DNA of 64,000 bases from Candidatus Campbellbacteria bacterium RIFOXYC2_FULL_35_25. GTDB taxonomy: Bacteria > Patescibacteriota > Minisyncoccia > Phycocordibacterales > UBA12079. Each line of letters starts with the position of its first letter. Within the stretch, counting starts at the first letter, position 1. The position numbers were made by a program, and so were the translations under genes. The notes beneath the pieces were generated by a model. The model saw nothing but the letters and a program-made list of their open reading frames with translations. It was not told the DNA's origin and did not search any database. Below are positions 10,686-63,092 of this stretch, piece by piece. Where the stretch lies: the NCBI GenBank assembly GCA_001774495.1, contig MFAE01000006.1, positions 5,356 to 69,355 of the forward strand, read 5' to 3'.

Positions 10686-10708
10686 TTTCTTGATTAGTTG
10701 AATAAGTT

Positions 10709-10815
10709 AAAATTTTGATACAGTTCGAGGAAGTGAAAAAAAATTATTTGAGGCGTATTTATAATACGGTGAAAATAATTTTTTTAAAACTGACGAAGAA
10801 CTGTGCAAAATTTGG
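10709..10815 (-). ncRNA. R1: candidate structured RNA (novel family, paralog of R2 and R3) starting 2 nt after the cupin stop codon
   Basis: Three nested helices: outer aaattttg/caaaattt, second acagttc/gaactgt, central hairpin cgtat-tataa-atacg. Conserved cores CGTATT.TAATACGCCTC and GCTTCCTCGAACTGTATC are shared with R2 and R3, with compensatory substitutions. Confidence 0.6.
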
Positions 10816-10817
10816 AC

Positions 10818-11216
10818 TTATTCTGTAGTTGTTCCATCAAAATGTTCATCATCAGCCTCAGCCTCTTCTTTTGTTGTATGGATAACTCCGTTTCTGTGAT
10901 GAGCTGGGGAATAGATAGTGTAAAGTTTCATATCTTCAGTTTCAGAAGTATTGATAACATTATGGTCTGTCCCGGCTGGAATTAGGATAGCAAAACCATC
11001 TTCAACAGCAGTTTCAACTCCATCTAAAATTACTTTTCCTTCCCCTGAATCTACTCTGAAAAATTGGTCAGTATCTTCATGAACCTCCATCCCAATTTCT
11101 TCCATTGGTTTCAGACTCATAAGAACTAGTTGGCTGTACTTCCCGGTGTAAAGAACTTCTCTAAAATTTGAGTTCTCTTTAGTTAACTTCTCTATGTTTT
11201 TTATAAATCCATGCAT
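10818..11216 (-). CDS. cupin-domain protein
   Basis: 132 aa, single cupin_2-like beta-barrel (G.DHNVINTSE...LYTIYSPAHH). Confidence 0.6.
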   Translation of the reverse strand: MHGFIKNIEKLTKENSNFREVLYTGKYSQLVLMSLKPMEEIGMEVHEDTDQFFRVDSGEGKVILDGVETAVEDGFAILIPAGTDHNVINTSETEDMKLYTIYSPAHHRNGVIHTTKEEAEADDEHFDGTTTE

Positions 11217-11232
11217 AATATTTTTAAATTAA

Positions 11233-11523: not shown

Positions 11524-11535
11524 AGAAATTTTAGT

Positions 11536-11570
11536 AAAAAAAGGATTTTGCTTCGCAAAATCCTTTTTTT
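11536..11570 (-). terminator. intrinsic bidirectional terminator (aaaaaaaggattttgc-ttc-gcaaaatcctttttttt)
   Basis: Perfect 9-bp stem with A- and T-runs, 3' of R2 on the minus strand. Confidence 0.7.
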
Positions 11571-11598
11571 ACTACATATGTTATTGTTTCTAAATAAT

Positions 11599-11707
11599 TT
11601 CAAATTTAGATACAGTTCGAGGAAGCAAGGGAAAATTTTTCGAGCCTTATTTCCTATAAGGTGAGAATAATTTTTCTGAAGATGACAAAGAAACTCGCCA
11701 ATTTTGA
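11599..11707 (-). ncRNA. R2: candidate structured RNA (paralog of R1/R3) starting 10 nt after the secA stop codon
   Basis: Same architecture as R1. The central hairpin ccttat-aggaa-ataagg has a G-C to U-A compensatory change relative to R1, and the 3' core CTTCCTCGAACTGTATC is shared. Confidence 0.6.
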
Positions 11708-11716
11708 AGTTATTTA

Positions 11717-14248
11717 TTATTTTCCACAGCACTTTTTGTATTTTTTGCCACTACCACAAGAACACAAATCATTCCTCCCCAGTTTCTCTCCCTGATTTAC
11801 AATTGGTTTTTGAACCTGCCCTTCTCCTTCTGACCCTGCTTTTTCGGTAATACTCTTTGCTTGTTCATGGATGGCTTGTAGTTGTTGCTGTTCTCTAACA
11901 AAAGCTCCAGCTCCCATACTTGGAATAAAGTGTAAAATCTTTTCATTGATTACCCACTGCATTTCCTTAAACATATTCAATCCTTCTCTTTTATATTCAA
12001 CAAGAGGGTCTCTTTGCCCATAGGCACGTAAATTAACTGATGAACGCAAATAATCCATTACTTCTAAGTGTTCTACCCAAAGCATATCAATAGTTTGCAA
12101 CATCAGTCTTCTCATAACATCAAAAAATTCGATGTCACCCAACAAACCCCTTTTTTCTTTAATAATTAACCCCAGACTTTCCCGAGTACCAAAAAGTTCC
12201 ACAGCTTCTTCGGATGAAGTGCTGTAAACTTCTTCAATAATTCCTTCCAAAATATCTTCTATTTCTTTATCTGTGCCAAACAAAATTTTTCTTCTTCTTT
12301 CGTAAACAATTTTTCTTTGGTAATTTAAAATATCATCATATTGCAAAACATGTTTTCTGGAATCAAAATTAAACCCTTCAATTTTTTCTTGGGCTGATTC
12401 AAGGGAGCGGGTTATCATTTTATTCTGGATAGCCTCATCTTCAGGGATTCCCAATTTGCCCATAAGATTTTTAACCATATCAGAAGCAAACACTCTCATA
12501 AGAGTATCTTCTAGGGAAACAAAAAATTGTGTTTCTCCTGGGTCTCCCTGCCTTCCAGAACGACCTCTCAACTGATTATCTATTCTTCGAGATTCATGTC
12601 TTTCTGTCCCCATAACAAACAATCCGCCCAAACTCTTAACTTCTTTATATTTTTCTGGGGTCATTGGAATACCGCCAAGTTTAATATCAACTCCTCGTCC
12701 GGCCATGTTTGTAGCAACGGTTACTCTACCTTTTTCCCCCGCTTGAGCAATAATTTCACCTTCATTTTCGTGATTTTTTGCATTTAATAATTCGTGTTTT
12801 ATTCCCTCCGCTTTTAAATACTGTGAGAGTAATTCATTTTTATCAATAGAAACTGTTCCAATCAAAACTGGCTGACCTGTTTTATTTAATTCTTTTACTT
12901 TTTTTGCTAGGGCTTTAAATTTTCCTGTCTCTGTTTGAAAAATTAAATCGTCCTGATCTTTTCTTTGAATATCTTGGTGGGTAGGAATAACCACTGTCTC
13001 CAAACCATAAACTTTGTAAAACTCTTCTGAAGAAGAGTGCGCTGTTCCTGTCATTCCTGACAATTTTTTGTAAAGACGAAAATAATTTTGGAAAGTAATA
13101 GAAGCATAAGTTCGTGATTCTTTCTGAACTTTTAATCCCTCTTTAGCTTCTATCGCTTGGTGTAAACCTTCTGACCACCTTCTCCCTGGTTGTAAACGAC
13201 CAGTAAATTCATCAACAATAATTATTTCTCCTTCTTTAACAACATACTCCTTGTTTGCATTAAAAAGCGCCTTGGCTCTAACCGCTGTTTCAAGATGGTG
13301 AACAAATTTGATTCCCTTTTCAGTATAAATATTTTCTATGCCTAATATTTTTTCTGCCTTTTCTACCCCAGCGTCTGTCAGTGTCACTGCTTTAAATTTT
13401 TCTTCTACCTCAAAATCTGTATCCCTAATCATTTTAGTCGCAATTTTCGCAAACTGTGCATACAAATCTTCTGAATCTGTAGTGGGTGTTGAAATGATCA
13501 AAGGGGTTCTCGCTTCATCAATAAGAATAGAGTCTATCTCATCTACAATAGCAAAGTTGTATTCTCTCTGACGAATTTGTTCTTTTCTGTATTCAATATT
13601 ATCTCTCAAATAATCGAAACCAAACTCGTTGTTTGTTCCATAAGTTATATCAGCTCCATAAGCCTCCTTTCTTGTGCAAGGGCGAAGAAACTCATCAACA
13701 ATTTTATAAGAACCTTCTTCATCTCTTTCTTTATCTAGTTCTGTGTGAGTTGAGTCATAAAGATATGATTGTTCACTGTTTATAATTCCGATACTCAAAC
13801 CAAGAGCTGAATAAACTTGTCCCATCCAAACAGCATCTCTTCGTGAAAGATAATCGTTAACAGTAACGACGTGCACTCCTTTTCCTTCTAAAGCATTCAA
13901 ATAAACGGGCAATGTCGCAACCAAAGTTTTTCCTTCTCCTGTTCTCATTTCGGCAATTTTTCCTTGATGTAAAATAATTCCCCCAAAAAGTTGAACATCG
14001 TAGTGTCTTTCTCCTAAATTTCGTTTAGATGTTTCTCTTACAAGAGCAAAAGCTTCTGGCAACAACTCATCTAGGGTCTCCCCCTCTTTCAACCTGTCTC
14101 TATATTCTTTTGTTTTATTTTTTAAAGCTTCTTCAGATAAATTCAAAAAACTATCCTCCCAAGAATTAATTTTTTCCACTAAAGGCTGAAGATCTTTCTG
14201 AGCCTTTTTATTTTCATCCCCACTTAATATTTTCTTTAAAAAATTCAT
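11717..14248 (-). CDS. secA: preprotein translocase ATPase SecA
   Basis: 843 aa. DEAD-like motor motifs (GEGKTLVATLPVYLNAL), preprotein cross-linking domain, C-terminal zinc-binding CSCGSGKKYKKCCGK. Confidence 0.93.
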   Translation of the reverse strand: MNFLKKILSGDENKKAQKDLQPLVEKINSWEDSFLNLSEEALKNKTKEYRDRLKEGETLDELLPEAFALVRETSKRNLGERHYDVQLFGGIILHQGKIAEMRTGEGKTLVATLPVYLNALEGKGVHVVTVNDYLSRRDAVWMGQVYSALGLSIGIINSEQSYLYDSTHTELDKERDEEGSYKIVDEFLRPCTRKEAYGADITYGTNNEFGFDYLRDNIEYRKEQIRQREYNFAIVDEIDSILIDEARTPLIISTPTTDSEDLYAQFAKIATKMIRDTDFEVEEKFKAVTLTDAGVEKAEKILGIENIYTEKGIKFVHHLETAVRAKALFNANKEYVVKEGEIIIVDEFTGRLQPGRRWSEGLHQAIEAKEGLKVQKESRTYASITFQNYFRLYKKLSGMTGTAHSSSEEFYKVYGLETVVIPTHQDIQRKDQDDLIFQTETGKFKALAKKVKELNKTGQPVLIGTVSIDKNELLSQYLKAEGIKHELLNAKNHENEGEIIAQAGEKGRVTVATNMAGRGVDIKLGGIPMTPEKYKEVKSLGGLFVMGTERHESRRIDNQLRGRSGRQGDPGETQFFVSLEDTLMRVFASDMVKNLMGKLGIPEDEAIQNKMITRSLESAQEKIEGFNFDSRKHVLQYDDILNYQRKIVYERRRKILFGTDKEIEDILEGIIEEVYSTSSEEAVELFGTRESLGLIIKEKRGLLGDIEFFDVMRRLMLQTIDMLWVEHLEVMDYLRSSVNLRAYGQRDPLVEYKREGLNMFKEMQWVINEKILHFIPSMGAGAFVREQQQLQAIHEQAKSITEKAGSEGEGQVQKPIVNQGEKLGRNDLCSCGSGKKYKKCCGK

Positions 14249-14627: not shown

Positions 14628-15402
14628 TGCTATGTGCTAAGCTAAGCTTAGCACATTTTATTTTATTCAAAATCAATTACCAAATCTCTTTCTTCTTCAT
14701 CTTCTCCAAAGTCTTTAGTTCCACTTTTGTTATTAAATTCCTTATATTCTTGGTTATTATCAAACTGACCTTTAATAATTTCATAACTTAATAAATTCCC
14801 CCAACGACTCTCGCCAACATAATCCTGAAAACTTGACCATGGGTATTTTTCTTCTTTATTCTTCCATTCTTTTATACCTCTAGGATTTCTATGAATATAA
14901 GCAGATAGATAAAGTAATTGTTCGTTAGATTCAATATGAACTACCTTAAAGGTTCCTTGAAATAAATGCCCTGTTTTTGCATATTTTTTATTATGATATT
15001 TGGTAAAGGATGTACCGATTCGGTGCATATACTGAGAGATTCCACCCTCTTTTGTCTCCCTAAGAGTTAAATGAAAATGATTAGGCATTAAGCAAAAATT
15101 GATCAATTCAACATATCTGTTTTTTATAACTAAATCTAGCTGATCTTTTTTAAAATAAAAAAAATTTCTTTTTACAAAAAAACTAACTGAACGAGAAATA
15201 TTTAAAAAACTAAAGGTAGACTGAAAATAAATAATTAAAAATAAAAAACGAACATAATCACGAATGTCTAAAAAAATATTTTGTTTATTATTCCCCCTAT
15301 TATAAACGTGGTAATATTCACCCACAGAAATTTCTACTTTTCTCATAAGTATTATAATACACAAAAACCTTAAAATGTGCAAAGCTAAGCTTAGCACATT
15401 TT
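14628..15402 (-). mobile_element. IS200/IS605-family (RAYT-like) element: Y1 HUH transposase gene flanked by identical subterminal hairpins
   Basis: Left hairpin atgtgctaagc-taa-gcttagcacat at 14636-14660 and right hairpin aatgtgcaaagc-taa-gcttagcacatt at 15374-15400, in the same orientation either side of the tnpA ORF. No TnpB gene. Confidence 0.65.
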
Positions 15403-15418
15403 GCACTTTTAGTTCCAA
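14663..15418 (-). CDS. tnpA: IS200/IS605-type Y1 (HUH) transposase TnpA / REP-associated tyrosine transposase-like
   Basis: YHVYNRGNNKQNIF, HUH motif MPNHFHLTL, catalytic Tyr region QLLYLSAYIHRNP. The likely real start is internal MRKVEIS (about 15346); the upstream extension overlaps the right hairpin and the murB stop. Confidence 0.7.
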   Translation of the reverse strand: MELKVQNVLSLALHILRFLCIIILMRKVEISVGEYYHVYNRGNNKQNIFLDIRDYVRFLFLIIYFQSTFSFLNISRSVSFFVKRNFFYFKKDQLDLVIKNRYVELINFCLMPNHFHLTLRETKEGGISQYMHRIGTSFTKYHNKKYAKTGHLFQGTFKVVHIESNEQLLYLSAYIHRNPRGIKEWKNKEEKYPWSSFQDYVGESRWGNLLSYEIIKGQFDNNQEYKEFNNKSGTKDFGEDEEERDLVIDFE

Positions 15419-41156: not shown

Positions 41157-42953
41157 TTAACTTCCCAAAATCTCTCTCAAAATTTTTTCAGGAACTTCTC
41201 TTAATTCCTCTTCCTTTTTGGGAATAGAGGCTTTTTTGTCTTCCTCAGCCTCTTTTAAAGCTTTTTTTAAAGTTTCTTTTAATTTCTCTTTATTCGACTT
41301 TTCGATGTCTTTATTTAAAGTGTCTTGCTTCTCCAATATCTTTTTCTTCTCTCCTACGTCTTCTCCCTTAGTCCTTGAAATACTATCCATTGCACCACTC
41401 AAGGCCTCTTTAAGTGAATTTTTTCCCTCTAATACCGGCCTTTTGGCAGAAGATGGGGTTGTAGGTGTCATTGGTGTTGGTGTTACCTTTGCGGTTGTCG
41501 GCATCGCTTTTGTCGCTGTGGTAGTAGTAGTGGTAGTAGTTGTTGTTGGCGCTTTATTTGCCGAATACTTCTGGCTGTTTCCTTCAAACCTTTTTTGAGG
41601 GGCACCTTCACTAGGCTTCGCTCCCTCTTTCTCGTTAGAAACAACCTTCTTAACCTTGAATGATTTTTCGTGCCAATCTTTTATTTCTTTCTCTACTTCA
41701 GTCTTAGGCCGAGTAAAACGATTTCTAGAAGCAGCAACAATCTCATCCCGAAAAGAGATGCCTTGTTTCTTTATTGGAGGAAGTGTTCTTGCTGAAAAAG
41801 GAGTAGAGCCAACTCCGTCAATCATTAACTTTAAATAGATTTGAGCGAAACCAAGATTAACAATATCATCCATAAGAAAAACTGGCGAAAATTCTTTTTC
41901 AAATATTTCAGCATCAAATGACCCTACTCGGAAAACAATCATAGTCCCGACGTTTCCAAAAACAGCAAAACGAACCACCTCAGGCATTTGCTCAATATAT
42001 TGGTGAGCCATTGTTAAATTTAGTTTATATTTTCTAGCCTGAGATAAAATATCAGCGAAGGAATCATTGGCGAGGTTCTGAAACTCATCTATGTGTAAAT
42101 AAAAATTGGGGTGTTGGGCTAACTCACCCGGAGATAAATCGGCTCTACTCATTGCCGCTAAAAATATTTTTGTTGTCATCATAGAGCCGAGTAAATTTGC
42201 ATTTGACTCCCCAATTTGACCAATGGATAGATTTATCAAAAGGATTTTTCTAGTATCCATAACATTCCTAAAATCAAAAGAAGATTTAACTTGTCCTACA
42301 ATATTTCTGATAATTGAATTTGATGTAAACTGCCCTACTTTATTCAAAACAGCCGAATATGCATCTTTTCTGTATCTATCATCCCAAGCTGCATATTCTT
42401 TTTCCCAAAAGGCTTTAACCGAGGGGTCAGTAACATAGCTGACGACCTCTTTTTGGAAGTCATTATCAGTAAACATCCTTGGCATAGATAACATTGTAGA
42501 ATTTGGGTACTCCAAAAGAGCCAAAATTGTATTGCTGGTGATGTGTTCCATCCTGTCAGAAAAAGTTTCTTCTCCCCAAATCTTTTTAAAGGAAGATAAA
42601 AGACCTTGGGCAACTAGGTGCCTTTTTTCAGGGTCAACATTTTCCATAACGTTGAAAGCAATAGGATGTTCTGTATCAAAAGGAGCAAAATAAATAACAT
42701 CATCTATTCTATTTTCTGGAACGTAATCTAAAAACTTATCTATGGAACCTCCGTGTGGGTCAATAAAGGCAATCCCATTACCATCCAAAATATCCTGCGC
42801 TGCCATATTTTCTAGGAGAGTAGATTTTCCCATTCCTGTCTTTCCTATAACATAAACGTGGCGGGCTCTGTCTAATGCTTTTATTCCAAAAGGAGTTTTT
42901 TTGTTACGAAAATCAGTTTCCGCAAAATATGTAATTTTGTTAAGATCTTCCAT
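41157..42953 (-). CDS. type IV secretion coupling-protein-like ATPase (TraG/TraD/VirD4-like, T4SS-DNA_transf type) with Thr/Pro-rich C-terminal tail
   Basis: Walker A GKTGMGKST, IDPHGG, Walker B HIDEFQNL. C-terminal low-complexity APTTTTTTTTTTATK...TPTPMTPTTPS and a KE-rich tail. Confidence 0.6.
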   Translation of the reverse strand: MEDLNKITYFAETDFRNKKTPFGIKALDRARHVYVIGKTGMGKSTLLENMAAQDILDGNGIAFIDPHGGSIDKFLDYVPENRIDDVIYFAPFDTEHPIAFNVMENVDPEKRHLVAQGLLSSFKKIWGEETFSDRMEHITSNTILALLEYPNSTMLSMPRMFTDNDFQKEVVSYVTDPSVKAFWEKEYAAWDDRYRKDAYSAVLNKVGQFTSNSIIRNIVGQVKSSFDFRNVMDTRKILLINLSIGQIGESNANLLGSMMTTKIFLAAMSRADLSPGELAQHPNFYLHIDEFQNLANDSFADILSQARKYKLNLTMAHQYIEQMPEVVRFAVFGNVGTMIVFRVGSFDAEIFEKEFSPVFLMDDIVNLGFAQIYLKLMIDGVGSTPFSARTLPPIKKQGISFRDEIVAASRNRFTRPKTEVEKEIKDWHEKSFKVKKVVSNEKEGAKPSEGAPQKRFEGNSQKYSANKAPTTTTTTTTTTATKAMPTTAKVTPTPMTPTTPSSAKRPVLEGKNSLKEALSGAMDSISRTKGEDVGEKKKILEKQDTLNKDIEKSNKEKLKETLKKALKEAEEDKKASIPKKEEELREVPEKILREILGS

Positions 42954-43067
42954 ACCTATTAGTATAAAGTTAAAAGGAGAAAGTTAAAAGGGGGAAAATT
43001 GAATTAAAAAATAAACAAAAAACAAACACTCCTGTGTTTGTTTTTTGTTTTCTCTCTTCTTAATTTT

Positions 43068-46000
43068 CTACTGGTTGTAAACATCACAAAAGACTTTCCT
43101 GGTCATAGGGCCAAAGACTCCGTAACCGGTAGTTGCTTCTGTTCCTGAACAAACAACATCATATTTACACTGGTATCTTTGAACAGCTTTGATAGTTAAA
43201 TTTCCGTAATAGCCCGAGTTTATCCCTTTGGGATAAATCTTCTTGTCTAGGGATAAAATTTCTTGTAACTTTTTGACTTGTTCATTTTCCATACCGTAGG
43301 AGAGGGTGGCATTAAAGTATTGTGAGCAAGTCAAACCATCAATTAGTTTTGTTCCTACTGGGTTAACGATTGGGGTTTGGTCTGTTGTGGAAGTAGCAAT
43401 ACTAAAACTAATATTAGCGTCTGTAGTATTAGTATTCCCGACTGTATCTCTGCACTTAATGTAATAATTATGATTACCGTTACTTAATCTACTAATTATA
43501 GCACTGTGAGTATCCCCACTGGCTGTCATTGTTCCTGTCATTGAATCGTAGGCAGTGTTAGCTACTGTGCTGTATTTACAAATGGCTGTTTCATTCGTTG
43601 TGACAGAAAGAATGGTTGAGGTTGTGCCTGCTGGTAATATGCCCGTTGGAATTAAAGAAGAAATAACAGGGGGAACGGTGTCAGTGATCCCTCCACCAAC
43701 AGTAGCTGTGTTTGAATAGGCGCCTAGATTACCCGCCATATCAAAAGCTTTCACAGAATAGGTGTAGTTTGTGTTGGGTATCAGAGCCGTGTCTGAATAA
43801 AAATTAGTTATGGTTGTTGTAAGGGAATTTGTTGGTGTACAAGAAGTCCCGGCACACCTGTATATGTGGTAACCAGCTACCCCTAGATCGTCAGTTGCTG
43901 AAACCCAAGTTAAATTGATTTGGGAAGAAGAAATTGAAGTTGCTTGTAATCTAGCAGGAGCCGATGGAGCGATGGTATCAACCCAAGCGGAATCGTACTC
44001 ATCATTATCTTCTGCAGAAGCACATCCAGGATCAATAGGATAATCTATTTTTCCATCAGAATCATTATCTATTCCATCGTTACATTGATAAATCCCACTT
44101 AGGGCGCAAGTCTGAGTTCCTGTTGTTATTGGTTTAGTTGCTGTGGTACCACAACTGTTAGCATCTGTGCAAGTTCTTGTCTGAGTTTGTGAGTTGTTGG
44201 AACAAACCCCCCAAGCACTCCAAGAGGAGCATGTCCAAGCTTCGATACAAACAGGGGGAGTATAAATACAAGATTGAGTCAAGACTGGTGAGCCTCCAAC
44301 ACACCCTGTTGGAGTTGAAGATATAATTGTTCTTGATTGTGTTCCATTAGATTGGCAAGTTCCGAAAGTAGAATAGGTGAAGTTAGTGCAGGTGACAGGT
44401 GAAGTAATTGTATATTTTTCCAACCAATTTTCTGCTGACCAACCGTCAGGAGCACTGTCGTAATTCACTTGCCACCACCAGTAACCATCACTAGATACAG
44501 GACCTCCAATAATTGTCCCTAACAAACCAACGGCTTGGGTACCTAAATAAGTTCCCGAAGGTGTAGCGCGGACGTTGAGAGTAGTGGTTGTTTTGGCACG
44601 ATCGTTAATAGCTAGTTTTGTGGAAGCTACCAAAGTAGCTGTGCAAGCTTGTGTTTGAGTAACGGACGGTTTGTTCGTAGTAGTGCCACAACTATTGACA
44701 TCGGTGCAAGCCCTGGTTTGGGTTCGGGAACTATTGTTGCAAGCGGACCAAGCACTCCAAACAGAACACGACCATGATTCGGTGCAAGTAGCAGATGAAG
44801 TGGTTAGGTATTTTTCTAAATATTGTTCCACTGACCAACCGTCAGGAGCATTGTCGTAATTCACTTGCCACCACCAGTAACCATCACTAGATACAGGACC
44901 TCCAATAATTGTCCCAAAAGCCCCTAGAACTTGAGAACCCAAGAGTGTTCCTGTTATTGAAGGAGTGGCACGGACATTAAGAGTGGTTGTTGTTTTAACG
45001 TTGTCATTGATAGCTAGTTTGGTGGAAACTGTTGGGGTAATTGTACAAGACTGAGTGGTCACTGGTGAGCCACCGGTACAACCTGTCGGGGAGGAAGTAA
45101 TAACGGTTCTTGTTTGAGTATTGTTGGATTGACAGGTATTCCAGCTTGAATAGGTGAAAGAGGTGCAGGTGGTAGGAGTTGGGGTTGGATTGATAGCAGA
45201 ACTAGATGGCATCCCGTCCCGTACTTCCCAATCATCAACTTGTCTAGAAAATGTACCTGTCTCTTCTGCATCAATAGATGGGGCAGCCACATAATAAACA
45301 TTATTAGGTGTCCAAACTCCGTCTGCATAATCGGCATCCAACTTTAAAGTACCATCGTACCAGAATTTACTAATCCCTGTAGAAAATTTAATATAGAATT
45401 CGTAATGATGCCATTTTCCGTCAGTCATATTAGGAGTGCCAATGTATTTACTCAACTCTATCATTGTCCCATTGCCTTTGGCAGAGTAATATATTGTACC
45501 ATCATTCATCATTGTGTAGTGAACATAACTTTGAACACCATTCCAATGAGGATAAAATAATTTGAAATTTTCAAAAGTATCGGTGCTTGTGAAATTTGGA
45601 TACCGCATCCAAAAAGACACGTGCATCTCATCTGATGGCCAAGGAGATGGGATATTATTCTTCCAAACAAGATGGGCCGAATTCACATTTCCAGAACTAA
45701 ATGAATATCCAGTTCCATTCCGGCCTACAGCATTAAGATTATAGTCTGGAGGAGAAAGCACAGACCAGTTTGGTCCATACACAATTAATCTACTGTCAAC
45801 CTCTTGGTCATCAAAATTTTCCTGAAAAAGAAGAGAGGAGCCAGAAACAGTAGCAGAAGTACAAGCTTGCGATCCAGTTGTGGTTGGTTTACTTGTGGTT
45901 GTACCACAACTATTGACATCGGTGCAAGCCCTGGTTTGGGTTTGGGAACTATTGTTGCAAGCGGACCAAGCACTCCAAACAGAACACGACCATGATTCGG

Positions 46001-47225
46001 TGCAAGTAGCAGATGAAGTGGTTAGGTATTTTTCTAAATATTGTTCCACTGACCAACCGTCAGGAGCATTGTCGTAATTCACTTGCCACCACCAGTAACC
46101 ATCACTAGATACAGGACCTCCAATAATTGTCCCAAAAGCCCCTAGAACTTGAGAACCCAAGAGTGTTCCTGTTATTGAAGGAGTGGCACGGACATTAAGA
46201 GTGGTGGTTGTTTTGACACGATCGTTAATAGCTAGTTTTGTGGAAACTGTCTGGGAAGTGGTGCAAGATTGGGTTTGGGTGGTGATTGGTTTACTGGTGG
46301 TGGTGCCACAAGAGTTGGCATCGGTGCAGGTTTTGGTTTGAGATTGGGAGTTATTGGTGCAAGTGGACCAAGCGCTCCAAGAGGTGCACGACCATGATTC
46401 GGTGCAGATGGTAGATGGAGGGGTAGTTGATATGGATGATGACATAAACGCAAATGGAGGAAGTCCATCCCAAACCTCATAATCATCAATCGCCCATCCT
46501 CCATGACCATCCGCAGAGTCACATGTCGCTTTCAAAGCAGGAGACCTGTCAAGTCCCGCGCCATTATAATGCCCGGTTATTATATTGTTCCTATCAGAAA
46601 CTATTTCATTATTAATAGCCATCACGAAATGACCATCGGGATTGCTATGGCTTGTTCCGGATGAAAGTTTCATATAAATCTCGACCTTCATCCAATCGCC
46701 ACGAGTATAACTGGCTCCAAACCAATCACTGCCTATTGGTGTCCCAGATCCTCCCTGCCACACCAACCCCACTCCCGTATCTGAAAAAGAGGTGAATGCT
46801 ATCTCCGTGTGTCCTAAACTTCCACCATCAAACCAAAGTTGTTTGGTGTTATAGTATGTATTTCCTACACAATTGGAATAATTTGCATCAAACTTCACCC
46901 AATATTTTATATATAACTCATCCGTTGCAGGAAAGGGCGATGAAGGAAATGCAATATTAAGATCACCACCACTATCATCTAAATTATGCGTGCTCCATGC
47001 TGCAAGGCCCGTATGCCCCGGCACATAAGTTACTATATGGTCAGGATTGCTCGGATGATTATACCAATATTCATACGCGTGGATATAGCCCAACGAATCA
47101 GTAAGGTTGTTTTCAAAATCCACTTTGCTGATTTGATTGGCGGCCTGGCTAACTTCTGTCTTGAATAGAAAAATTCCAACAATGAAAATAATAACTAAAG
47201 AATACCTGGTTATTTTTTTTGTCAT
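43068..47225 (-). CDS. giant secreted multidomain surface protein: ConA-like jelly-roll x2, thrombospondin-type-1-like Cys repeats x4-6, SH3b x3, FN3, C-terminal peptidoglycan-binding domain
   Basis: Signal peptide. Repeats CTESWSC.VWSAWSACNNSSQTQTRACTD.NSCG (WSxWS...RxRxC, TSP1-like), SH3b units (LNVRATPSITGTLLG...WWWQVNYD), FN3 (PSAPARLQATSISSSQINLTW), and a PG_binding_1-like segment (LSYGMENEQVKKLQEIL). Confidence 0.6.
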   Translation of the reverse strand: MTKKITRYSLVIIFIVGIFLFKTEVSQAANQISKVDFENNLTDSLGYIHAYEYWYNHPSNPDHIVTYVPGHTGLAAWSTHNLDDSGGDLNIAFPSSPFPATDELYIKYWVKFDANYSNCVGNTYYNTKQLWFDGGSLGHTEIAFTSFSDTGVGLVWQGGSGTPIGSDWFGASYTRGDWMKVEIYMKLSSGTSHSNPDGHFVMAINNEIVSDRNNIITGHYNGAGLDRSPALKATCDSADGHGGWAIDDYEVWDGLPPFAFMSSSISTTPPSTICTESWSCTSWSAWSTCTNNSQSQTKTCTDANSCGTTTSKPITTQTQSCTTSQTVSTKLAINDRVKTTTTLNVRATPSITGTLLGSQVLGAFGTIIGGPVSSDGYWWWQVNYDNAPDGWSVEQYLEKYLTTSSATCTESWSCSVWSAWSACNNSSQTQTRACTDVNSCGTTTSKPTTTGSQACTSATVSGSSLLFQENFDDQEVDSRLIVYGPNWSVLSPPDYNLNAVGRNGTGYSFSSGNVNSAHLVWKNNIPSPWPSDEMHVSFWMRYPNFTSTDTFENFKLFYPHWNGVQSYVHYTMMNDGTIYYSAKGNGTMIELSKYIGTPNMTDGKWHHYEFYIKFSTGISKFWYDGTLKLDADYADGVWTPNNVYYVAAPSIDAEETGTFSRQVDDWEVRDGMPSSSAINPTPTPTTCTSFTYSSWNTCQSNNTQTRTVITSSPTGCTGGSPVTTQSCTITPTVSTKLAINDNVKTTTTLNVRATPSITGTLLGSQVLGAFGTIIGGPVSSDGYWWWQVNYDNAPDGWSVEQYLEKYLTTSSATCTESWSCSVWSAWSACNNSSRTQTRACTDVNSCGTTTNKPSVTQTQACTATLVASTKLAINDRAKTTTTLNVRATPSGTYLGTQAVGLLGTIIGGPVSSDGYWWWQVNYDSAPDGWSAENWLEKYTITSPVTCTNFTYSTFGTCQSNGTQSRTIISSTPTGCVGGSPVLTQSCIYTPPVCIEAWTCSSWSAWGVCSNNSQTQTRTCTDANSCGTTATKPITTGTQTCALSGIYQCNDGIDNDSDGKIDYPIDPGCASAEDNDEYDSAWVDTIAPSAPARLQATSISSSQINLTWVSATDDLGVAGYHIYRCAGTSCTPTNSLTTTITNFYSDTALIPNTNYTYSVKAFDMAGNLGAYSNTATVGGGITDTVPPVISSLIPTGILPAGTTSTILSVTTNETAICKYSTVANTAYDSMTGTMTASGDTHSAIISRLSNGNHNYYIKCRDTVGNTNTTDANISFSIATSTTDQTPIVNPVGTKLIDGLTCSQYFNATLSYGMENEQVKKLQEILSLDKKIYPKGINSGYYGNLTIKAVQRYQCKYDVVCSGTEATTGYGVFGPMTRKVFCDVYNQ
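44440..46270. repeat. intragenic tandem duplication: about 1.2-kb period, about 315 bp near-identical (44687-45000 vs 45893-46206), plus a diverged third copy
   Basis: ORF-track frames 44671..44859 and 45880..46077 translate to identical 62-aa peptides 1209 nt apart. Direct reading shows only a few mismatches across about 315 bp. Confidence 0.8.
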
Positions 47226-56436: not shown

Positions 56437-59400
56437 TTATTTATTAAGTTTCAATTTAAAAACTAAATCATCGATTTTTATTATTTCTGCGTCAGTTCTG
56501 CACAACTCCGCGTTTGTTCCGCATTTGATTTCTTCTATTCCAGCTACTTTTTTCAAATCTACTTCAAATTTTTTAATAAGATCTTCCCCCTCTTTGTTTG
56601 TCTCAACTTCTAATTCAACCAAATCACTTGGAACAAGATTTTCTTGCTTCCTTAATTTCTGAATATTTCTTAGCAACTCTCGATAACGTCCTTCTCCTTT
56701 TAATTCCGGGGTGATTGTTGCATCTAATTCTACTTTTTCTTCATCGTGTTCCCCAAAAACGACCATTTTCACATTTACCTCATCTTTAATTACTTCAACC
56801 ATCTGTTCATCCATAACTGTCGCTTGTGGACTGTAGGCAGTAAGACTTTGTAGTGGTTGTCTCACCTTAATTCCAAGTTCTGCCCTTGCCTCCAAAGCCA
56901 AAGAAACGATCTCTTTAACTTTTTTCATGCTTTCCAAAATAGCTTCATCGATGTTTACTTCTTTGGTCCAACTCTCGAGGTGCACACTTTCCAAGCCATC
57001 ATTACCTTTAACTTTCTGATAAATTTCTTCCGCCAAGAACGGCATAAAAGGAGCAATAACTTTTGAAAACTCTCTCAAAACAAATTGTGTTGTTGCCAAA
57101 GCATAATCTCGGTCCTTGTCATTACCCCCCTTAAATCTATCTCGAGACCTTCTAATATACCAGGTCGACAATTCCTCAACAAAATCCATAATTGGTCGAG
57201 AAGCCCTGTCTAATTCATAATTATTTAACCCTATGGAAACTTCTTTAATCAATTGATTTAATTTAGTTAATATCCATTTATCCAAAATGTTTTCACTGTC
57301 TTGCGGGTTAACTTTTGTTTTGGAATCTTCCTTGTACAACTCATAAAAAGAATAAACATTCTTAACTTTCAAAATAATTTTCTTCAAAATCTCATCTACT
57401 CCCTTTTCTGAAAAGTTTAAATCTTCTCCCCGAACAATCGGAGAACTAATCATATAATAACGCATCGCATCAGCTCCATATTTATCAAGGATGTATGAGA
57501 TATCAGGATAATTTTTTAAACTTTTTGACATCTTCTTTCCATCTTCCGCCAACACCATGCCGTTCACAATTACATTCTTATAAGAAGTTTTCCCAAACAT
57601 AGCTGTCGCCAATACTATAGACGTATAAAACCAGCCACGAGTTTGATCGGTTCCTTCGGCGATAAAATCTGCAGGAAAACCAATTCCTTTTTCAGGGTTA
57701 AACTTGTCTAAGTTTTCAAAAGGATAATGATTAGAAGCATAAGGCATCGCCCCCGACTCAAACCAACAATCAAAAACCTCTGCGATTCTTTTCATTTTTC
57801 CACCACACTCGCAATCAAATTCAACCTTATCAATATAAGGCATATGTAAATCTGTTTCATAATTTTTATTATGAGGTAATGGGGCAAAATCCAATTCACG
57901 AATTTCAGCATTTCCAAAAAGATTTTCTTCCTCTTTAAAAGCAACTGTTTTCTCGGCATTTAACCCTTTTGCTACGGAAAGCAAAAACCAAGCAGGATAT
58001 TCGTGAGTAACAATTAAGATATTCTTATCTGAATACTTTTTATCTATGTCGTAAATAAAATCTCCCACTCTATTTTTTGTCTCATTAAGACTTTCTCCGT
58101 TAGAAGTAGCCTGTGTAAATTTCCCCAGTAAAGAGCCGGCAAAACTTCTATACTCATCTACATTTTTACCCTCGAGATCACCTACTTGGGCTTCGATAAT
58201 TCTTTCATCAAAAATAATATCGGTTTTTTTAATTCCGATTCCTTCGGAGATTATTTCAGCGGTTTCTTTTGTTCTAACAAAAGGTGAAGAAATGATTACA
58301 TCTATTTTTTTCTTCTTTAGTTCCTCTAGAGCTTCTTTTACTTGCTCTTTTCCTACTTCTGTTAAATGATGAGGATTCGTTGCTTTTGAACTACAAACAT
58401 TCAAGGTATTATTTTCTGCCTCACCGTGGCGAATCACAAAGTAATTATTTGTTCCTTTTGTCTCTTTTCTTAATTCATCAATCGAACCAATTATTTTTAT
58501 CTTTCCACAACCATTATCTTGAGAATTTGTGTTTTGTGTTTCGTGTTTCGTTTGGTTTTTGTGTTCTACACTTTGTATTTTCCTAGTTTGGCAACGCCAA
58601 ACTGGTAACGGAGCTCCCCAAAAACGAGTTCTGGAAATTGCCCAGTCACGAGCTCCTTCAAGCCACTTACCAAACCTTCCGTCTCGAATATTTTCTGGCA
58701 CCCAATTAACTTCTTGATTAGCTTTAATCATTTCATCCTTAATTCCTGTTACTTTTAGAAACCAAGAAGAGGTCGCGTAGTTAAGAAGTGGGGTGTGACA
58801 TCTCCAGCAATGAGGATAAGAGTGTTCAATTTTTTCTTTTGAAAACAACACGCTACCCCCCTCTCTATTAGCCAAAAGTTTTATCATCTCAATATCAGTT
58901 GCCATGTGGTCATCCTTAGGCTTTACGTACAAACCAGCTAACCCATCCCCCACTTCTGATTTAAATTTTCCATCAATTGAAACATGCTGAACAAAAGGTA
59001 AGCTTTCTTTTTTACCCAACTCCATATCATCAGAACCAAAAGCAGGAGCAATATGAACAATCCCTGTTCCATCTTCGGTAGTTACAAAATCAGCTCCGTA
59101 AATTTTCCAACCATTTTTGTGATTTTCCAAACTTTTGTCTTTTGAATAATAATCAAAAAGTGGTTTGTAAGATTTTCCAATTAATTCTGAACCCTTAGTT
59201 ATCTCATTAACATTTTTTACAAGATGACCTAAAAAATCAAACATGTCTTCGTCTTCTCTTGGAGTTATCGGTGTTTTTTTATTTTCAAAAATTTCTTTAG
59301 CAACCCAATAATATTCTTTTTTAAAATTACTTTCGTAAGTTTCTCCTGGCTCAATTTTTTTTACTTCGTTTGTATTTTCAATTTTTAAATAATCAATATT

Positions 59401-60120
59401 TGGGTGAACTGCCAAAGCGACGTTTCCAGGCAAAGTCCACGGAGTAGTTGTCCAAGCCAAAACAAAAGTTCCGGGCTCGTCTGCTAATTCAAACTTAACT
59501 GTCGCTGACAAATCTTTGATATCTTTATACCCCTGATTAACTTCAAAGTTTGAAAGGGTTGTTTCACACCGAGGGCACAAATGCATTGCTTTGTGTCCTT
59601 CGTAAATTAAATTTTTGTCATAGATAGTTTTAAAAATATGCCAGATAGACTCAGAGTAAGAAGTGTCCATTGTCTGGTAACTAGCATTCATATCCACCCA
59701 TCTACCTGTTCGTGGAATAATCTTTTTCCAATCAACATCATAACGAAGCACACTATTCTTGGCCGCTTCATTAAATTTTTCTACTCCATAATCATAGATG
59801 TCCTGTTTGTTTTTGAAACCTAGTTCATCTTCAATTAAATTTTCAATCGGCAAACCATGACAATCCCAGCCCCAACGACGAGAAACTTTTTTACCAAGCA
59901 TTGTTTGATAACGAGGAATGATATCTTTCATGGTTCCTGCCAAAATATGACCATAATGAGGTAAACCAGTAGCAAAAGGAGGTCCATCATAAAAAACAAA
60001 AGAGCCGTTGGGAGATTCCTTCTCGGTAGATTTTTCAAAAATTTTATTATCCTGCCAAAATTTCAGAACTTCTTCTTCACTTTTAGCAGTCTCGGATTTA
60101 TTATTATTTTTATCTTCCAT
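56437..60120 (-). CDS. ileS: isoleucyl-tRNA synthetase carrying an inserted histidine-phosphatase (PGAM-like) domain
   Basis: HIGH (PHYGHIL) and KMSKS (KMSKSLKNYPD) motifs, editing domain (WTTTPWTLPGN). About 250 extra residues (aa ~513-768) containing RHGEAENN...SSPFVRTKETAEII...IVTHEYPAWF lie between WRCQ and CECGG. Confidence 0.85.
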   Translation of the reverse strand: MEDKNNNKSETAKSEEEVLKFWQDNKIFEKSTEKESPNGSFVFYDGPPFATGLPHYGHILAGTMKDIIPRYQTMLGKKVSRRWGWDCHGLPIENLIEDELGFKNKQDIYDYGVEKFNEAAKNSVLRYDVDWKKIIPRTGRWVDMNASYQTMDTSYSESIWHIFKTIYDKNLIYEGHKAMHLCPRCETTLSNFEVNQGYKDIKDLSATVKFELADEPGTFVLAWTTTPWTLPGNVALAVHPNIDYLKIENTNEVKKIEPGETYESNFKKEYYWVAKEIFENKKTPITPREDEDMFDFLGHLVKNVNEITKGSELIGKSYKPLFDYYSKDKSLENHKNGWKIYGADFVTTEDGTGIVHIAPAFGSDDMELGKKESLPFVQHVSIDGKFKSEVGDGLAGLYVKPKDDHMATDIEMIKLLANREGGSVLFSKEKIEHSYPHCWRCHTPLLNYATSSWFLKVTGIKDEMIKANQEVNWVPENIRDGRFGKWLEGARDWAISRTRFWGAPLPVWRCQTRKIQSVEHKNQTKHETQNTNSQDNGCGKIKIIGSIDELRKETKGTNNYFVIRHGEAENNTLNVCSSKATNPHHLTEVGKEQVKEALEELKKKKIDVIISSPFVRTKETAEIISEGIGIKKTDIIFDERIIEAQVGDLEGKNVDEYRSFAGSLLGKFTQATSNGESLNETKNRVGDFIYDIDKKYSDKNILIVTHEYPAWFLLSVAKGLNAEKTVAFKEEENLFGNAEIRELDFAPLPHNKNYETDLHMPYIDKVEFDCECGGKMKRIAEVFDCWFESGAMPYASNHYPFENLDKFNPEKGIGFPADFIAEGTDQTRGWFYTSIVLATAMFGKTSYKNVIVNGMVLAEDGKKMSKSLKNYPDISYILDKYGADAMRYYMISSPIVRGEDLNFSEKGVDEILKKIILKVKNVYSFYELYKEDSKTKVNPQDSENILDKWILTKLNQLIKEVSIGLNNYELDRASRPIMDFVEELSTWYIRRSRDRFKGGNDKDRDYALATTQFVLREFSKVIAPFMPFLAEEIYQKVKGNDGLESVHLESWTKEVNIDEAILESMKKVKEIVSLALEARAELGIKVRQPLQSLTAYSPQATVMDEQMVEVIKDEVNVKMVVFGEHDEEKVELDATITPELKGEGRYRELLRNIQKLRKQENLVPSDLVELEVETNKEGEDLIKKFEVDLKKVAGIEEIKCGTNAELCRTDAEIIKIDDLVFKLKLNK

Positions 60121-62099: not shown

Positions 62100-62112
62100 G
62101 CAAAATTAAAAA

Positions 62113-62240
62113 TGTGAAGAGAGATGAGGAAGAAAATCGGCGGCAGTGTCCTCACACACGCATTCGCCAACATCTCGCAAGTTTTAGCTTCCCAAAGAAG
62201 CCTGCTCTGGGCAATACTTGTAAAATGTATCTCTCTTCAC
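62113..62240 (-). ncRNA. structured leader / candidate small RNA co-transcribed upstream of tRNA-Gln
   Basis: 12-bp long-range stem GTGAAGAGAGAT...ATCTCTCTTCAC encloses a GC-rich core, between a sigma70-like promoter and the tRNA. Confidence 0.35.
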
Positions 62241-62261
62241 AAAAAAGAGCAAATTTACATC

Positions 62262-62292
62262 ATTATACTACCTAAATAAACTTTTACGTCAA
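62262..62292 (-). promoter_or_regulatory. sigma70-like promoter TTGACG-19 nt-TATAAT driving the leader + tRNA-Gln transcript
   Basis: Minus strand reads cTTGACGtaaaagtttatttaggtagTATAATgatg. The -35 box abuts the CAAG duplication of MITE copy 3. Confidence 0.5.
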
Positions 62293-62293
62293 G

Positions 62294-62383
62294 CTCCCAC
62301 ACCTTTCATAATATTATTAAATAATTTTACAAAAGAGATTTACCTATTTTTTCCAAAGAACGATATTATGAAAGGTGTGGGGG
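62294..62383. mobile_element. MITE-like element copy 3 (90 bp): TIRs CTCCCACACCTTT / AAAGGTGTGGGGG, AT-rich 51-nt core, 4-bp direct repeat CAAG
   Basis: Read directly: caag-CTCCCACACCTTT-...-AAAGGTGTGGGGG-caag. Confidence 0.6.
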
Positions 62384-62397
62384 CAAGCAAAAATAAA

Positions 62398-62427
62398 ATA
62401 CCCCGGCCTGAGGGCACGGGGTATTTT
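62398..62427 (-). terminator. intrinsic bidirectional terminator (taccccg-gcctgagggca-cggggta)
   Basis: 7-bp GC stem with T-runs on both strands, immediately 3' of the R3 element on the minus strand. Confidence 0.6.
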
Positions 62428-62553
62428 GGAATAAACCTAAAATTAGATGCGATTCGGTGAAGCGAGAGCAAAATGGAAGGAGGCGTATTACAATACGACG
62501 ACTGACATTTTGTGAATCGCGACGCCGAAGGGCGCTAATTTTGGGTTTATTCC
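62428..62553 (-). ncRNA. R3: GC-richer paralog of R1/R2, overlapping the stop codon of gene 62547..62981 and abutting a terminator
   Basis: Outer stem cccaaaattag/ctaattttagg (19 bp), second stem gcgattc/gaatcgc, central hairpin cgtatt-gta-atacg followed by CCTCC, and the conserved GCTTCACCGAATCGCATC 3' core. Confidence 0.6.
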
Positions 62554-62981
62554 TCAATTCGAGAAAAACTTAAAGTATTTCCATTAGGCAAATAACTCAA
62601 TTCAAGTCTCTCAATACCAACAAATATTATCGTGTAAGTAAATTCCTCTTCATTAGTTATATTGATTAACTTATAGCCATCAACAAACCAGTTTCCAGAA
62701 TCAATCGACTTTCCGTCGTAAATACTCTCGAATCCCCCATTCTCATTAAAAACAATTACACTTTTAGAATCTTCTTTACTTTCCCAGCGACCAACAAAAT
62801 CTTTTTTCAAATCATAATTATCTTGATAATTATTTTCTTCGATAGCGATTGATTCATCGATAGCTTTTAATTCTTCATTAACAACTTCTTCGTTGGGAAG
62901 GTTTGGGAGAGTGTTTTTATAAAACCAACTTCCAACAGCGACCACAACTAAGATCAAAATAACATAAAATAAATTTTTCAT
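62547..62981 (-). CDS. hypothetical secreted/lipoprotein-like protein
   Basis: 144 aa, N-terminal signal/anchor MKNLFYVILILVVVAVGSWFY. Confidence 0.4.
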   Translation of the reverse strand: MKNLFYVILILVVVAVGSWFYKNTLPNLPNEEVVNEELKAIDESIAIEENNYQDNYDLKKDFVGRWESKEDSKSVIVFNENGGFESIYDGKSIDSGNWFVDGYKLINITNEEEFTYTIIFVGIERLELSYLPNGNTLSFSRIEE

Positions 62982-63007
62982 ATAATAAATTAATTAAAAA
63001 ATAAAAA

Positions 63008-63092
63008 GAAGGAGGGAGGGGGTCGAACCCACCATAGATGTTTTACGGCAAGGCCGGTCATCTATTTAAGCAACCATTAATGCTTCTCCTTC
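63008..63092 (-). tRNA. tRNA-like element, non-canonical (85 nt): perfect acceptor stem, D-arm and T-arm, but the anticodon/variable region is replaced by a 7-bp hairpin with an 18-nt loop
   Basis: Reverse complement folds with acceptor GAAGGAG/CTCCTTC (or shifted by one with a 7:66 mismatch), D-arm GCA-TTAATGGT-TGC, T-arm GTGGG-TTCGACC-CCCTC (G53, C61 present). No 5/7/5 anticodon arm could be built. Confidence 0.3.

What the first reader, a model, noticed from the sequence alone, without database searches (positions are those of the whole stretch)
62428..62553. R3: third, GC-rich member of the R family with three covarying pairs in helix 2
R3 keeps the same nested three-helix layout as R1, with different sequence.
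- Helix 2 is gcgattc/gaatcgc in R3 versus acagttc/gaactgt in R1. Three base pairs change while pairing is kept (A-U to G-C, A-U to G-C, G-C to A-U).
- The outer helix is cccaaaattag/ctaattttagg versus aaattttg/caaaattt.
- The central hairpin cgtatt-gta-atacg plus the CCTC tail is nearly identical to R1 (cgtatt-ata-aatacg-CCTC).
- The 3' core GCTTCACCGAATCGCATCTAATTTT parallels GCTTCCTCGAACTGTATCAAAATTTT.

R3 starts 4 nt inside the upstream ORF (overlapping its stop) and directly abuts terminator 62398-62427. The spurious ORF 62366..62557 in the track is explained by this GC-rich RNA.
Basis: seen in the sequence. Interest (0 to 1): 0.75.

Follow-up and report, generated by a model that had tools for sequence, protein, structure and literature searches.

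The report
Conserved hairpin element behind a stop codon
R3 is a real third copy of a roughly 120-base conserved hairpin element that sits between a gene's stop codon and its terminator in a Campbellbacteria genome.

Summary
R3 (62428-62553) exists as described and belongs to the same family as R1 (~10700-10823) and R2 (~11591-11717). A covariance model built without R3 recovers it at 69.5 bits, E=6e-15. Independent copies occur in three other Patescibacteria contigs. Across 7 sequences the consensus rod has 46 pairs; 90% of cells are paired and 28 pairs show double changes (shuffles 11.7±2.4; 0/500).

- **Strand.** The selected fold is on the + strand, antisense to the upstream genes. All six independent copies fold 7-22 kcal/mol better there, with 26 G·U cells against 6 A·C.
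- **Helix 2.** The cited pairing (gcgattc/gaatcgc) is a suboptimal alternative and is not the positional homologue of R1's helix 2. The homologous helix has one compensatory pair and two mismatches.

Rfam 15 has no match. Insertion positions are not conserved between related species, and orientation is fixed in 6 of 6 copies. Five of six start at or within a few bases of a stop codon; five of six are followed by a hairpin.

Best reading (confidence about 0.4): an old, structure-constrained palindromic insertion element, similar to MITEs or REPINs, handled as a folded single strand. Its mobiliser is unknown. The rivals are a 3'-UTR RNA and an antisense sRNA.

The parts
62428..62553 (+). R3, the whole element. 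The strand given is the one on which the fold is selected; the host gene and its mRNA are on the - strand.
   Evidence: Fold energy is -66.3 kcal/mol on + against -44.2 on -. CM hits: 136 bits, 106.8 bits, and 69.5 bits leave-one-out.
62428..62446 (+). P1 5' arm. It pairs with 62535-62553 to give 19 bp including one U·G. The outer pairs GGAATAA/TTATTCC include the host stop codon.
   Evidence: helix 1: 13 of 25 pairs show double changes.
62535..62553 (+). P1 3' arm. Positions 62547-62549 are the complement of the TAA stop of ORF 62547-62981(-).
62448..62459 (+). P2 5' strand, UGC..UUCGGUG. It pairs with 62523-62534 (CGCCGAA..GCG). It starts with the U·G pair that is invariant in all 7 sequences. 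The UUC/GAA part is the homologue of R1's helix 2.
   Evidence: (columns 23-30 with 104-111).
62462..62465 (+). P3, GCGA pairing with UCGC at 62517-62520.
62468..62513 (+). P4 (GCAAAAUG/CAUUUUGU), two tandem GA/GA purine loops and the terminal hairpin CGUAU-UACA-AUACG (62484-62497).
   Evidence: GA/GA loops are also present in R1, R2 and L123.
62547..62981 (-). Upstream host gene (144 aa, near-orphan, weak DUF3994 match). Its last codons and stop lie inside P1.
62398..62427 (-). Intrinsic terminator of the host transcript, directly abutting R3.
10700..10823 (+). R1, the family copy behind the cupin gene 10818-11216(-). A bidirectional terminator at 10656-10682 follows it in the sense direction.
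11591..11717 (+). R2, the family copy directly behind the SecA stop (11717-11719). It folds poorly and is probably decaying. The terminator is at 11532-11574.
   Evidence: (z=-2.4).

Best explanation
R3 is one copy of an old, low-copy family of ~115-130-bp palindromic insertion elements in Campbellbacteria and related Paceibacteria.

**Shown**
- Each copy is an unbranched rod: P1 of 17-19 bp, a bulged A, P2 starting with an invariant U·G, a conserved purine-rich internal loop (GAGGA / GACGAA), P3, P4, tandem G·A pairs and a terminal hairpin.
- Copies occupy the one dispensable slot of a compact genome, between a stop codon and the terminator. Five of the six independent copies start at or within a few bases of a stop codon, and all six have the same orientation. 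The sixth (L009) lies 46 nt after the stop, behind that gene's terminator.
- The 5' end carries (A)AATAA, which coincides with or follows the host stop codon.
- The family is gained and lost between species.

**Inferred**
- The form under selection is the folded single strand complementary to the host mRNA. This follows from the G·U (or G·T) and G·A pairs lying on that strand.
- The element is therefore handled like REP/REPIN units, IS200/IS605 ends or integron attC sites. An enzyme that reads a folded single strand would recognise it, and the mRNA would carry it passively as a 3'-UTR hairpin.
- A HUH-type Y1 transposase family is abundant in Patescibacteria, and one gene lies 3 kb from R2. 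It is a candidate mobiliser only. No link was demonstrated.
For: - **Copy number and spread.** There are three dispersed copies in 64 kb and no others. Further copies sit behind unrelated genes elsewhere: FtsZ in L123, PIF1 in L132, and between a terminator and SecA in L009.
- **No orthologous conservation.** The element is absent behind the orthologous cupin, PIF1 and SecA genes in L127, L129, L131, L132, L141, L142 and L144. R2 lies inside a 546-bp segment that is replaced in strain L100.
- **Pre-existing gene ends.** The host C-termini are the same in relatives that lack the element, so it sits behind a pre-existing stop.
- **Structure under selection.** 90.4% of cells are paired and 28 of 46 pairs show double changes, with 0/500 shuffles as good. 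Shifted-register controls give 37-47% paired.
- **Strand asymmetry.** It holds in 6 of 6 independent copies. It runs against the expected mutational bias, because the mRNA-sense strand is the G-rich leading strand.
- **Resemblance to bacterial MITEs.** These are described as <200 bp, A+T-rich, with terminal inverted repeats bearing 5'-TA-3' and a stem-loop formed by pairing of the two ends (PMC2229807).
- **Candidate enzyme.** The Y1/HUH gene is at 14663-15418 and has more than 3500 Patescibacteria homologues.
Against: - No target-site duplication is visible at any copy.
- No transposase with matching ends was found. The Y1 gene is flanked by its own, different hairpins (GTGCTAAGC..GCTTAGCAC). 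Three other Y1-bearing loci have no R copy.
- Copies are old and diverged (39-78% identity between independent copies), with no sign of a recent burst.
- The conserved asymmetric internal loops look more like a protein- or RNA-recognition surface than like simple inverted repeats.
- The selected strand is the leading-strand template. This is the opposite of the bias known for IS200/IS605-type single-strand transposition (from established knowledge of that family).
- Only six independent copies were available.
Confidence: 0.4

Rival explanations
1. This is the first reader's view: a cis-acting 3'-UTR RNA in the host mRNA (- strand). The hairpin, transcribed with the upstream gene and ending at the adjacent terminator, would stabilise the mRNA. 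Alternatively it would be processed into a 3'-UTR-derived sRNA whose C/U-rich loops (CUUCCUC, CCUCC) pair with Shine-Dalgarno-like sequences.
For: - The gene-R-terminator layout in R1, R2, R3 and L123 makes sense-strand transcription almost certain. L009 also has a hairpin after the element.
- The sense strand is still strongly structured, with z from -7 to -10 for R1, R3 and L123.
- The conserved pyrimidine loops resemble anti-Shine-Dalgarno sequence.
Against: - On this strand the variable wobble positions become C·A mismatches (26 cells against 6 G·U), and the tandem G·A pairs become U·C.
- The consensus energy is only -20.1 kcal/mol against -33.1 on the other strand.
- The leave-one-out model does not find R3 on this strand.
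- The element is not conserved behind orthologous genes.
Confidence: 0.2
2. An independent structured small RNA encoded on the + strand, convergent with the host gene and overlapping its 3' end. The rod with its conserved GA motifs and internal loop would bind a protein, and the long P1 would protect both ends.
For: - Covariation, G·U pairs, an invariant U·G and tandem G·A motifs all lie on the + strand.
- The family is conserved across genomes whose SecA is only 66% identical.
- The outer P1 pairs extend into each gene's own last codons, as if the helix had been lengthened by selection.
Against: - No promoter-like sequence is conserved upstream.
- In R1, R2, R3 and L123 a terminator hairpin sits 0-20 nt upstream in this orientation. 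It is bidirectional for R1 and R2, which leaves no room for a promoter.
- The patchy, multi-copy distribution with non-orthologous positions is unusual for a housekeeping RNA.
- There is no Rfam match.
Confidence: 0.2
3. A folded-strand recombination site, analogous to an integron attC site, that marks ends of exchangeable gene segments.
For: - It lies at the 3' end of ORFs, overlapping or touching the stop codon, in a fixed orientation.
- Structure is conserved more than sequence, and the selected strand is the bottom strand relative to the ORF.
- R1 and R2 lie in the hypervariable SecA-to-PIF1 interval.
Against: - No RYYYAAC/GTTRRRY cores.
- No integrase in the window.
- Flanking genes include the essential SecA and FtsZ.
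- Each copy but one is followed by a hairpin (a terminator in four cases), unlike cassette arrays.
- The one strain-level replacement has its breakpoints inside SecA and before the cupin gene, not at R2.
Confidence: 0.1
4. Chance resemblance between unrelated terminator-like hairpins.
For: The genome is A+T-rich and full of hairpins. Weak CM hits to plain terminators do occur.
Against: - The leave-one-out E-value is 6e-15.
- R1, R2 and R3 share an exact pattern.
- Foreign copies score 95-127 bits.
- Covariation exceeds all the controls.
Confidence: 0.01

Closest known systems
Bacterial MITE-like palindromic repeats (ERIC/IRU, RUP, Correia/NEMIS, YPAL), as reviewed by Delihas (PMC2229807)
   Same: - About 100-170 bp, non-coding and A+T-rich.
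- A rod formed by pairing of the 5' and 3' ends.
- Termini containing TA.
- Dispersed copies in transcribed intergenic DNA next to gene ends.
- Orientation matters for the RNA fold.
   Different: - No target-site duplication and no matching transposase ends.
- Very low copy number.
- Copies are old and diverged, with compensatory changes and conserved asymmetric internal loops.
- Strictly one orientation (6 of 6).
REP/REPIN elements with their RAYT (Y1/HUH) transposases
   Same: - Hairpin elements in 3' intergenic DNA that persist for long periods.
- Recognised as folded single strands by a single-copy, vertically inherited Y1 enzyme.
- A RAYT-like Y1 gene lies in conserved synteny (MurB-Y1-SecA) 3 kb from R2.
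   Different: - The Y1 gene is flanked by different short hairpins, not by R copies.
- R is not a doublet of one short REP.
- Its conserved loops are not symmetric.
- Y1-bearing loci without R exist.
Integron attC sites
   Same: - 57-141-bp imperfect palindromes at the 3' end of ORFs, often overlapping the stop codon.
- Structure conserved rather than sequence.
- The functional fold is on the bottom strand.
- Extrahelical bases are present.
   Different: - No R''/R' core sites.
- No integrase seen.
- Not arranged in arrays.
- Next to essential genes.
- Usually followed by terminator-like hairpins.
3'-UTR-derived small RNAs and 3'-UTR stabiliser hairpins
   Same: The layout is a stop codon, then a structured element, then the shared intrinsic terminator.
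   Different: The pairing pattern (G·U against A·C, G·A pairs) is on the strand that is not the mRNA.

Membership tests
R family (R1, R2 of this window) | Significant match to a sequence-plus-structure model built without the candidate | tested here: met
   The leave-one-out CM from A5 finds R3 at 69.5 bits, E=6e-15, on the + strand only.
R family (R1, R2 of this window) | Same genomic setting and orientation (behind a stop codon, before a terminator) | tested here: met
R family (R1, R2 of this window) | Helix 2 of R3 (gcgattc/gaatcgc) is homologous to helix 2 of R1, with three compensatory pairs | tested here: not met
The alignments pair UUC (62453-55) with GAA (62527-29), and the segment gaatcgc serves as P3. 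The homologous helix has 1 compensatory pair and 2 mismatches.
Bacterial MITEs | Shorter than 200 bp, non-coding, with a terminal inverted-repeat stem and multiple dispersed copies | tested here: met
   The definition is taken from PMC2229807.
Bacterial MITEs | Target-site duplication flanking each copy | tested here: not met
   No direct repeats are present at the flanks of R1, R2, R3, L123 or L132. A TA duplication is incompatible with the preserved stop codons.
Bacterial MITEs | A parent transposase gene with the same terminal repeats | tested here: not met
   The only transposase in the window (Y1, 14663-15418) has unrelated flanking hairpins. The rest of the genome could not be searched.
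REP/REPIN-RAYT | A RAYT (Y1/HUH) gene is present | tested here: inconclusive
   Pfam Y1_Tnp scores 38.7 bits, above its cut-off. NCBIfam REP_Tyr_transpos scores 38.6 bits, below its cut-off of 80. HUH and Y..NP motifs are present. Synteny is conserved in L144.
REP/REPIN-RAYT | The repeat flanks the RAYT gene and is a short hairpin or an inverted doublet of one | tested here: not met
   The flanking hairpins are GTGCTAAGC..GCTTAGCAC, and there are only two copies. R has non-symmetric conserved loops.
Integron attC | Conserved R''/R' cores RYYYAAC ... GTTRRRY | tested here: not met
   No such cores are conserved at the ends in A1, A3 or A4.
Integron attC | Bottom-strand fold located at the 3' end of the ORF | tested here: met
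Integron attC | An associated integron integrase | not testable with these tools
   None is in the window.
Any Rfam 15 family | A hit at the gathering threshold, or a consistent sub-threshold hit | tested here: not met
Intrinsic terminator | A short G+C-rich stem followed directly by a U tract | tested here: not met
   The scan calls only the neighbouring hairpin (62398-62417 plus tail), not R3.
cis-regulatory or 3'-UTR RNA on the mRNA strand | Wobble pairs and covariation consistent with the transcribed strand | tested here: not met
   There are 26 G·U against 6 A·C cells in favour of the opposite strand.

The most novel reading that the evidence does not exclude
R elements would be the substrates of a single-strand-specific DNA enzyme in candidate-phyla-radiation bacteria. 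The resident RAYT-like Y1/HUH protein, kept in MurB-Y1-SecA synteny, is one possible enzyme. On this reading they are an attC- or REPIN-like system of folded bottom-strand sites that docks at AATAA-type gene ends and helps exchange or capture small gene segments in these minimal genomes.
Probability: 0.15. Interest if true: 0.8.

Novelty: new variant of a known kind. Interest (0 to 1): 0.55.

Why it matters
- Patescibacteria have tiny genomes with few described non-coding or mobile elements.
- This is a covariation-supported ~120-nt element that persists across genera, is locked in orientation at stop codons, and is absent from Rfam.
- If it is mobile, it gives a handle on how DNA moves in these organisms, which cannot be manipulated genetically.
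- If it is an RNA, it is a new structured RNA class with a conserved purine-rich recognition loop.
- In practice it also explains a spurious ORF call, and the model built here can be used to annotate further copies.

Tried and rejected
- **Rfam.** Searches at gathering and permissive thresholds over the window and the foreign loci gave nothing.
- **Phage and plasmid collections.** blastn gave nothing relevant.
- **Pattern scans of viral contigs.** One returned 0 hits and the other 7 chance hits.
- **Metagenome pattern scan.** It returned 31 hits, of which only L100 and L123 were real. This is about the chance expectation.
- **Riboswitch or attenuator reading** (aptamer plus terminator before a downstream gene). 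Rejected because the downstream genes are unrelated and the strand is wrong.
- **Hammerhead-like CUGANGA** in R1 and R2. It is not conserved in R3 or L123.
- **K-turn at the P2/P3 loop.** The strand lengths do not fit.
- **Resemblance of CAGUNCGAGG to the sarcin-ricin loop.** The segment is not a local hairpin here, so I judged it coincidental.
- **Coding potential of the + strand.** Rejected because indels break the reading frame.
- **Promoter on the + strand.** No conserved -10/-35 elements.
- **Link to the Y1 transposase.** Tested on L022, L143 and L144 and not supported.
- **Cassette-boundary idea.** The L100/window breakpoints do not coincide with R2.
- **An R3 orthologue in an 84%-identical relative.** The contig ends at the stop codon, so this was uninformative.

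Full report
**Source.** The window comes from Candidatus Campbellbacteria bacterium RIFOXYC2_FULL_35_25 (Patescibacteria). Its SecA is 100% identical to that MAG's protein. The same DNA is found in several aquifer metagenome contigs. The genome is A+T-rich. Most genes lie on the - strand, which is also the G-rich leading strand (GC skew of the + strand about -0.2).

**The observation.**
- Positions 62428-62553 form a 126-nt imperfect palindrome.
- It folds far better than shuffled controls on either strand: z=-8.8 and -11.1, with 0/200 shuffles as good.
- The outer helix covers the TAA stop (62547-62549) and four coding bases of the 144-aa ORF 62547-62981(-).
- The other end abuts the intrinsic terminator 62398-62427.
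- The ORF at 62366-62557 exists only as a mechanical ORF. Gene callers did not call it on the public contigs.
- A pattern for the 3' core finds exactly three sites in the window: R1, R2 and R3.
- Covariance models scanned with filters off find these three copies and no more.

**Family membership.**
- Models built from the window copies found independent copies elsewhere:
  - behind FtsZ in metagenome contig L123;
  - behind the PIF1 helicase gene in L132;
  - between a terminator and SecA in a Paceibacterota MAG, L009, whose SecA is only 66% identical.
- Strain-level copies occur in L100, L133, L135, L137 and L140.
- A model built from R1, R2, L123, L132 and L009 only recovers R3 at 69.5 bits, E=6e-15.
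- R3 is 62% identical to R1 and 39-58% identical to the other independent copies.

**Structure.**
- On a 7-sequence alignment (A4) the consensus is an unbranched rod of 46 pairs.
- 90.4% of cells are paired. 28 pairs show changes on both sides, against 11.7±2.4 in column shuffles (0/500 as high). Shifting the 3' partners by 1-3 columns drops pairing to 37-47%.
- Helix 2 does covary within the family: U-A becomes C-G in L132 and A-U in L009, and A-U becomes G-C in R3 and L009.
  - MAFFT and Infernal both align R1's gaactgt with R3's gaagggc, and they use part of gaatcgc as P3.
  - In the homologous helix R3 differs from R1 by one compensatory pair and two mismatches.
  - Over the whole rod R3 has 7 compensatory pairs against R1.

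**Strand.**
- All six independent copies fold much better on the strand antisense to the upstream gene. The energies in kcal/mol are below.

| Copy | Antisense (model) strand | Gene-sense strand |
|---|---|---|
| R3 | -67.5 | -45.7 |
| R1 | -43.6 | -29.7 |
| R2 | -30.5 | -20.8 |
| L123 | -43.0 | -31.1 |
| L132 | -49.7 | -31.3 |
| L009 | -58.6 | -51.8 |

- In the consensus pairs there are 26 G·U cells against 6 A·C cells on that strand.
- One U·G pair is invariant. Several positions show the classic U-A / U·G / C-G series.
- Tandem G·A loops lie on the same strand.
- RNAalifold gives -33.1 kcal/mol with 46 pairs on this strand, against -20.1 with 38 pairs on the other.
- Mutational bias would predict the opposite asymmetry, because the sense strand is the exposed, G-rich leading strand. 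I therefore conclude that the fold is under selection on the + strand of the window.

**Context.**
- Five of the six copies start at or within a few bases of a stop codon, and all six have the same orientation.
- Five of the six are followed in the sense direction by a hairpin 0-20 nt away. It is a terminator in four of them; L132 has none.
- The host C-termini (cupin ...TTTE*, PIF1 ...LFLEK*) are the same in relatives that lack the element. The element therefore sits behind a pre-existing stop.
- The 3' end of the element (TTATTC, TTATTCC, TTATTTTT) is complementary to each gene's own last codons.
- No direct repeats flank the copies.
- The element is absent behind the orthologous cupin, PIF1 and SecA genes of related genomes.
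- R2 lies inside a 546-bp segment that is replaced in strain L100.

**Candidate partners.**
- Pfam scans of the window's proteins show housekeeping and glycosyltransferase genes, with no reverse transcriptase and no integrase.
- The only mobile-element enzyme is a Y1/HUH IS200-like or RAYT-like gene at 14663-15418(-).
  - It has its own flanking hairpins.
  - It lies in conserved MurB-Y1-SecA synteny with the same hairpins in L144.
  - A distant homologue lies 2.7 kb from the L009 copy.
  - L022, L143 and L144 carry Y1 genes without an R copy, so no link is shown.

**Interpretation.**
- The dispersed, non-orthologous, low-copy distribution points to an insertional palindromic element of the MITE/REPIN kind. 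So do the end-to-end rod, the TA-bearing termini and the placement in a dispensable slot (PMC2229807).
- Strong covariation, conserved asymmetric loops and fixed orientation show that the fold itself has been maintained for a long time on the strand complementary to the mRNA.
- That is what one expects for sites read as folded single strands, such as REP/RAYT, IS200/IS605 ends and attC. It is also what one expects for an antisense RNA.
- An antisense RNA is hard to reconcile with terminator hairpins 0-20 nt upstream in that orientation and with the lack of a promoter.
- A sense 3'-UTR RNA is almost certainly transcribed, but its pairing pattern is the disfavoured one.
- I rank the readings as follows:
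  - insertion element handled as a folded single strand: about 0.4;
  - sense 3'-UTR element: about 0.2;
  - antisense sRNA: about 0.2;
  - attC-like recombination site: about 0.1.
- Defining MITE, REPIN and attC features were tested and not met (duplication, matching transposase ends, flanking of the RAYT gene, core sites). I therefore do not file the element as a member of any of those families.

**Limits.**
- Only six independent copies were available.
- The genome-collection and metagenome scans were capped at one each.
- The MAFFT alignment misplaces part of R3's P3/P4, which inflates the count of 'broken' cells for R3.
- No expression data were available.

Noticed in passing
window 14632-15418 (gene 14663-15418, - strand; hairpins at 14632-14656 and 15375-15399): A Y1/HUH IS200-like or RAYT-like gene is flanked by its own hairpins (GTGCTAAGC..GCTTAGCAC). 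The same MurB-Y1-SecA synteny and the same hairpins occur in L144 (63% aa identity). The gene is absent in strain contig L135. It has more than 3500 Patescibacteria homologues, many on ~1-kb contigs.
   Followed up: partly
window 63003-63092 (- strand): A tRNA-like cloverleaf with a good T arm (GGGUUCGACCC) and an oversized anticodon arm. ARAGORN does not call it, and the Rfam tRNA-Sec model gives only 19 bits.
   Followed up: partly
window 62100-62262 (- strand): A structured region directly 5' of tRNA-Gln with a 12-bp closing stem (GUGAAGAGAGAU/AUCUCUCUUCAC). Its z-score is -3.6 and it has no Rfam match. It may be another small RNA.
   Followed up: partly
window 62295-62384: A perfect 19-bp inverted repeat (cccacacctttcataatat / atattatgaaaggtgtggg) separated by 52 nt, lying between R3's terminator and the region above.
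   Followed up: no
window 56437-60120 (- strand): The isoleucyl-tRNA synthetase is 1227 aa long and carries an inserted histidine-phosphatase (His_Phos_1) domain.
   Followed up: no
window 11223-11768 versus L100 1396-1917: The SecA 3' tail, R2, its terminator and the 96-aa ORF form a 546-bp segment. A close strain has a different 522-bp segment here, carrying another SecA C-terminus and a 121-aa ORF. L140 is a mosaic with 98% identity only from mid-SecA onward.
   Followed up: partly
window 62547-62561 versus L145 831-845: The 144-aa gene ends CGAATTGAGGAATAA in the window. In an 84%-identical relative it ends CGAAAATAA, a 6-nt difference. That relative's contig stops exactly at this TAA.
   Followed up: partly
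L009 9764-9810 and 7320-7460: The 5' arm of the L009 element (GGGCTTTTTGTTTTGA) repeats the tail of the preceding terminator. A 69-nt tandem duplication containing a hairpin follows the L009 Y1 gene.
   Followed up: no
window 41157-47225 (- strand): A TrwB-like type IV coupling-protein homologue lies next to a 1385-aa fn3-containing protein, in a stretch of higher G+C content and near-zero GC skew (40-48 kb). This may be acquired DNA.
   Followed up: no
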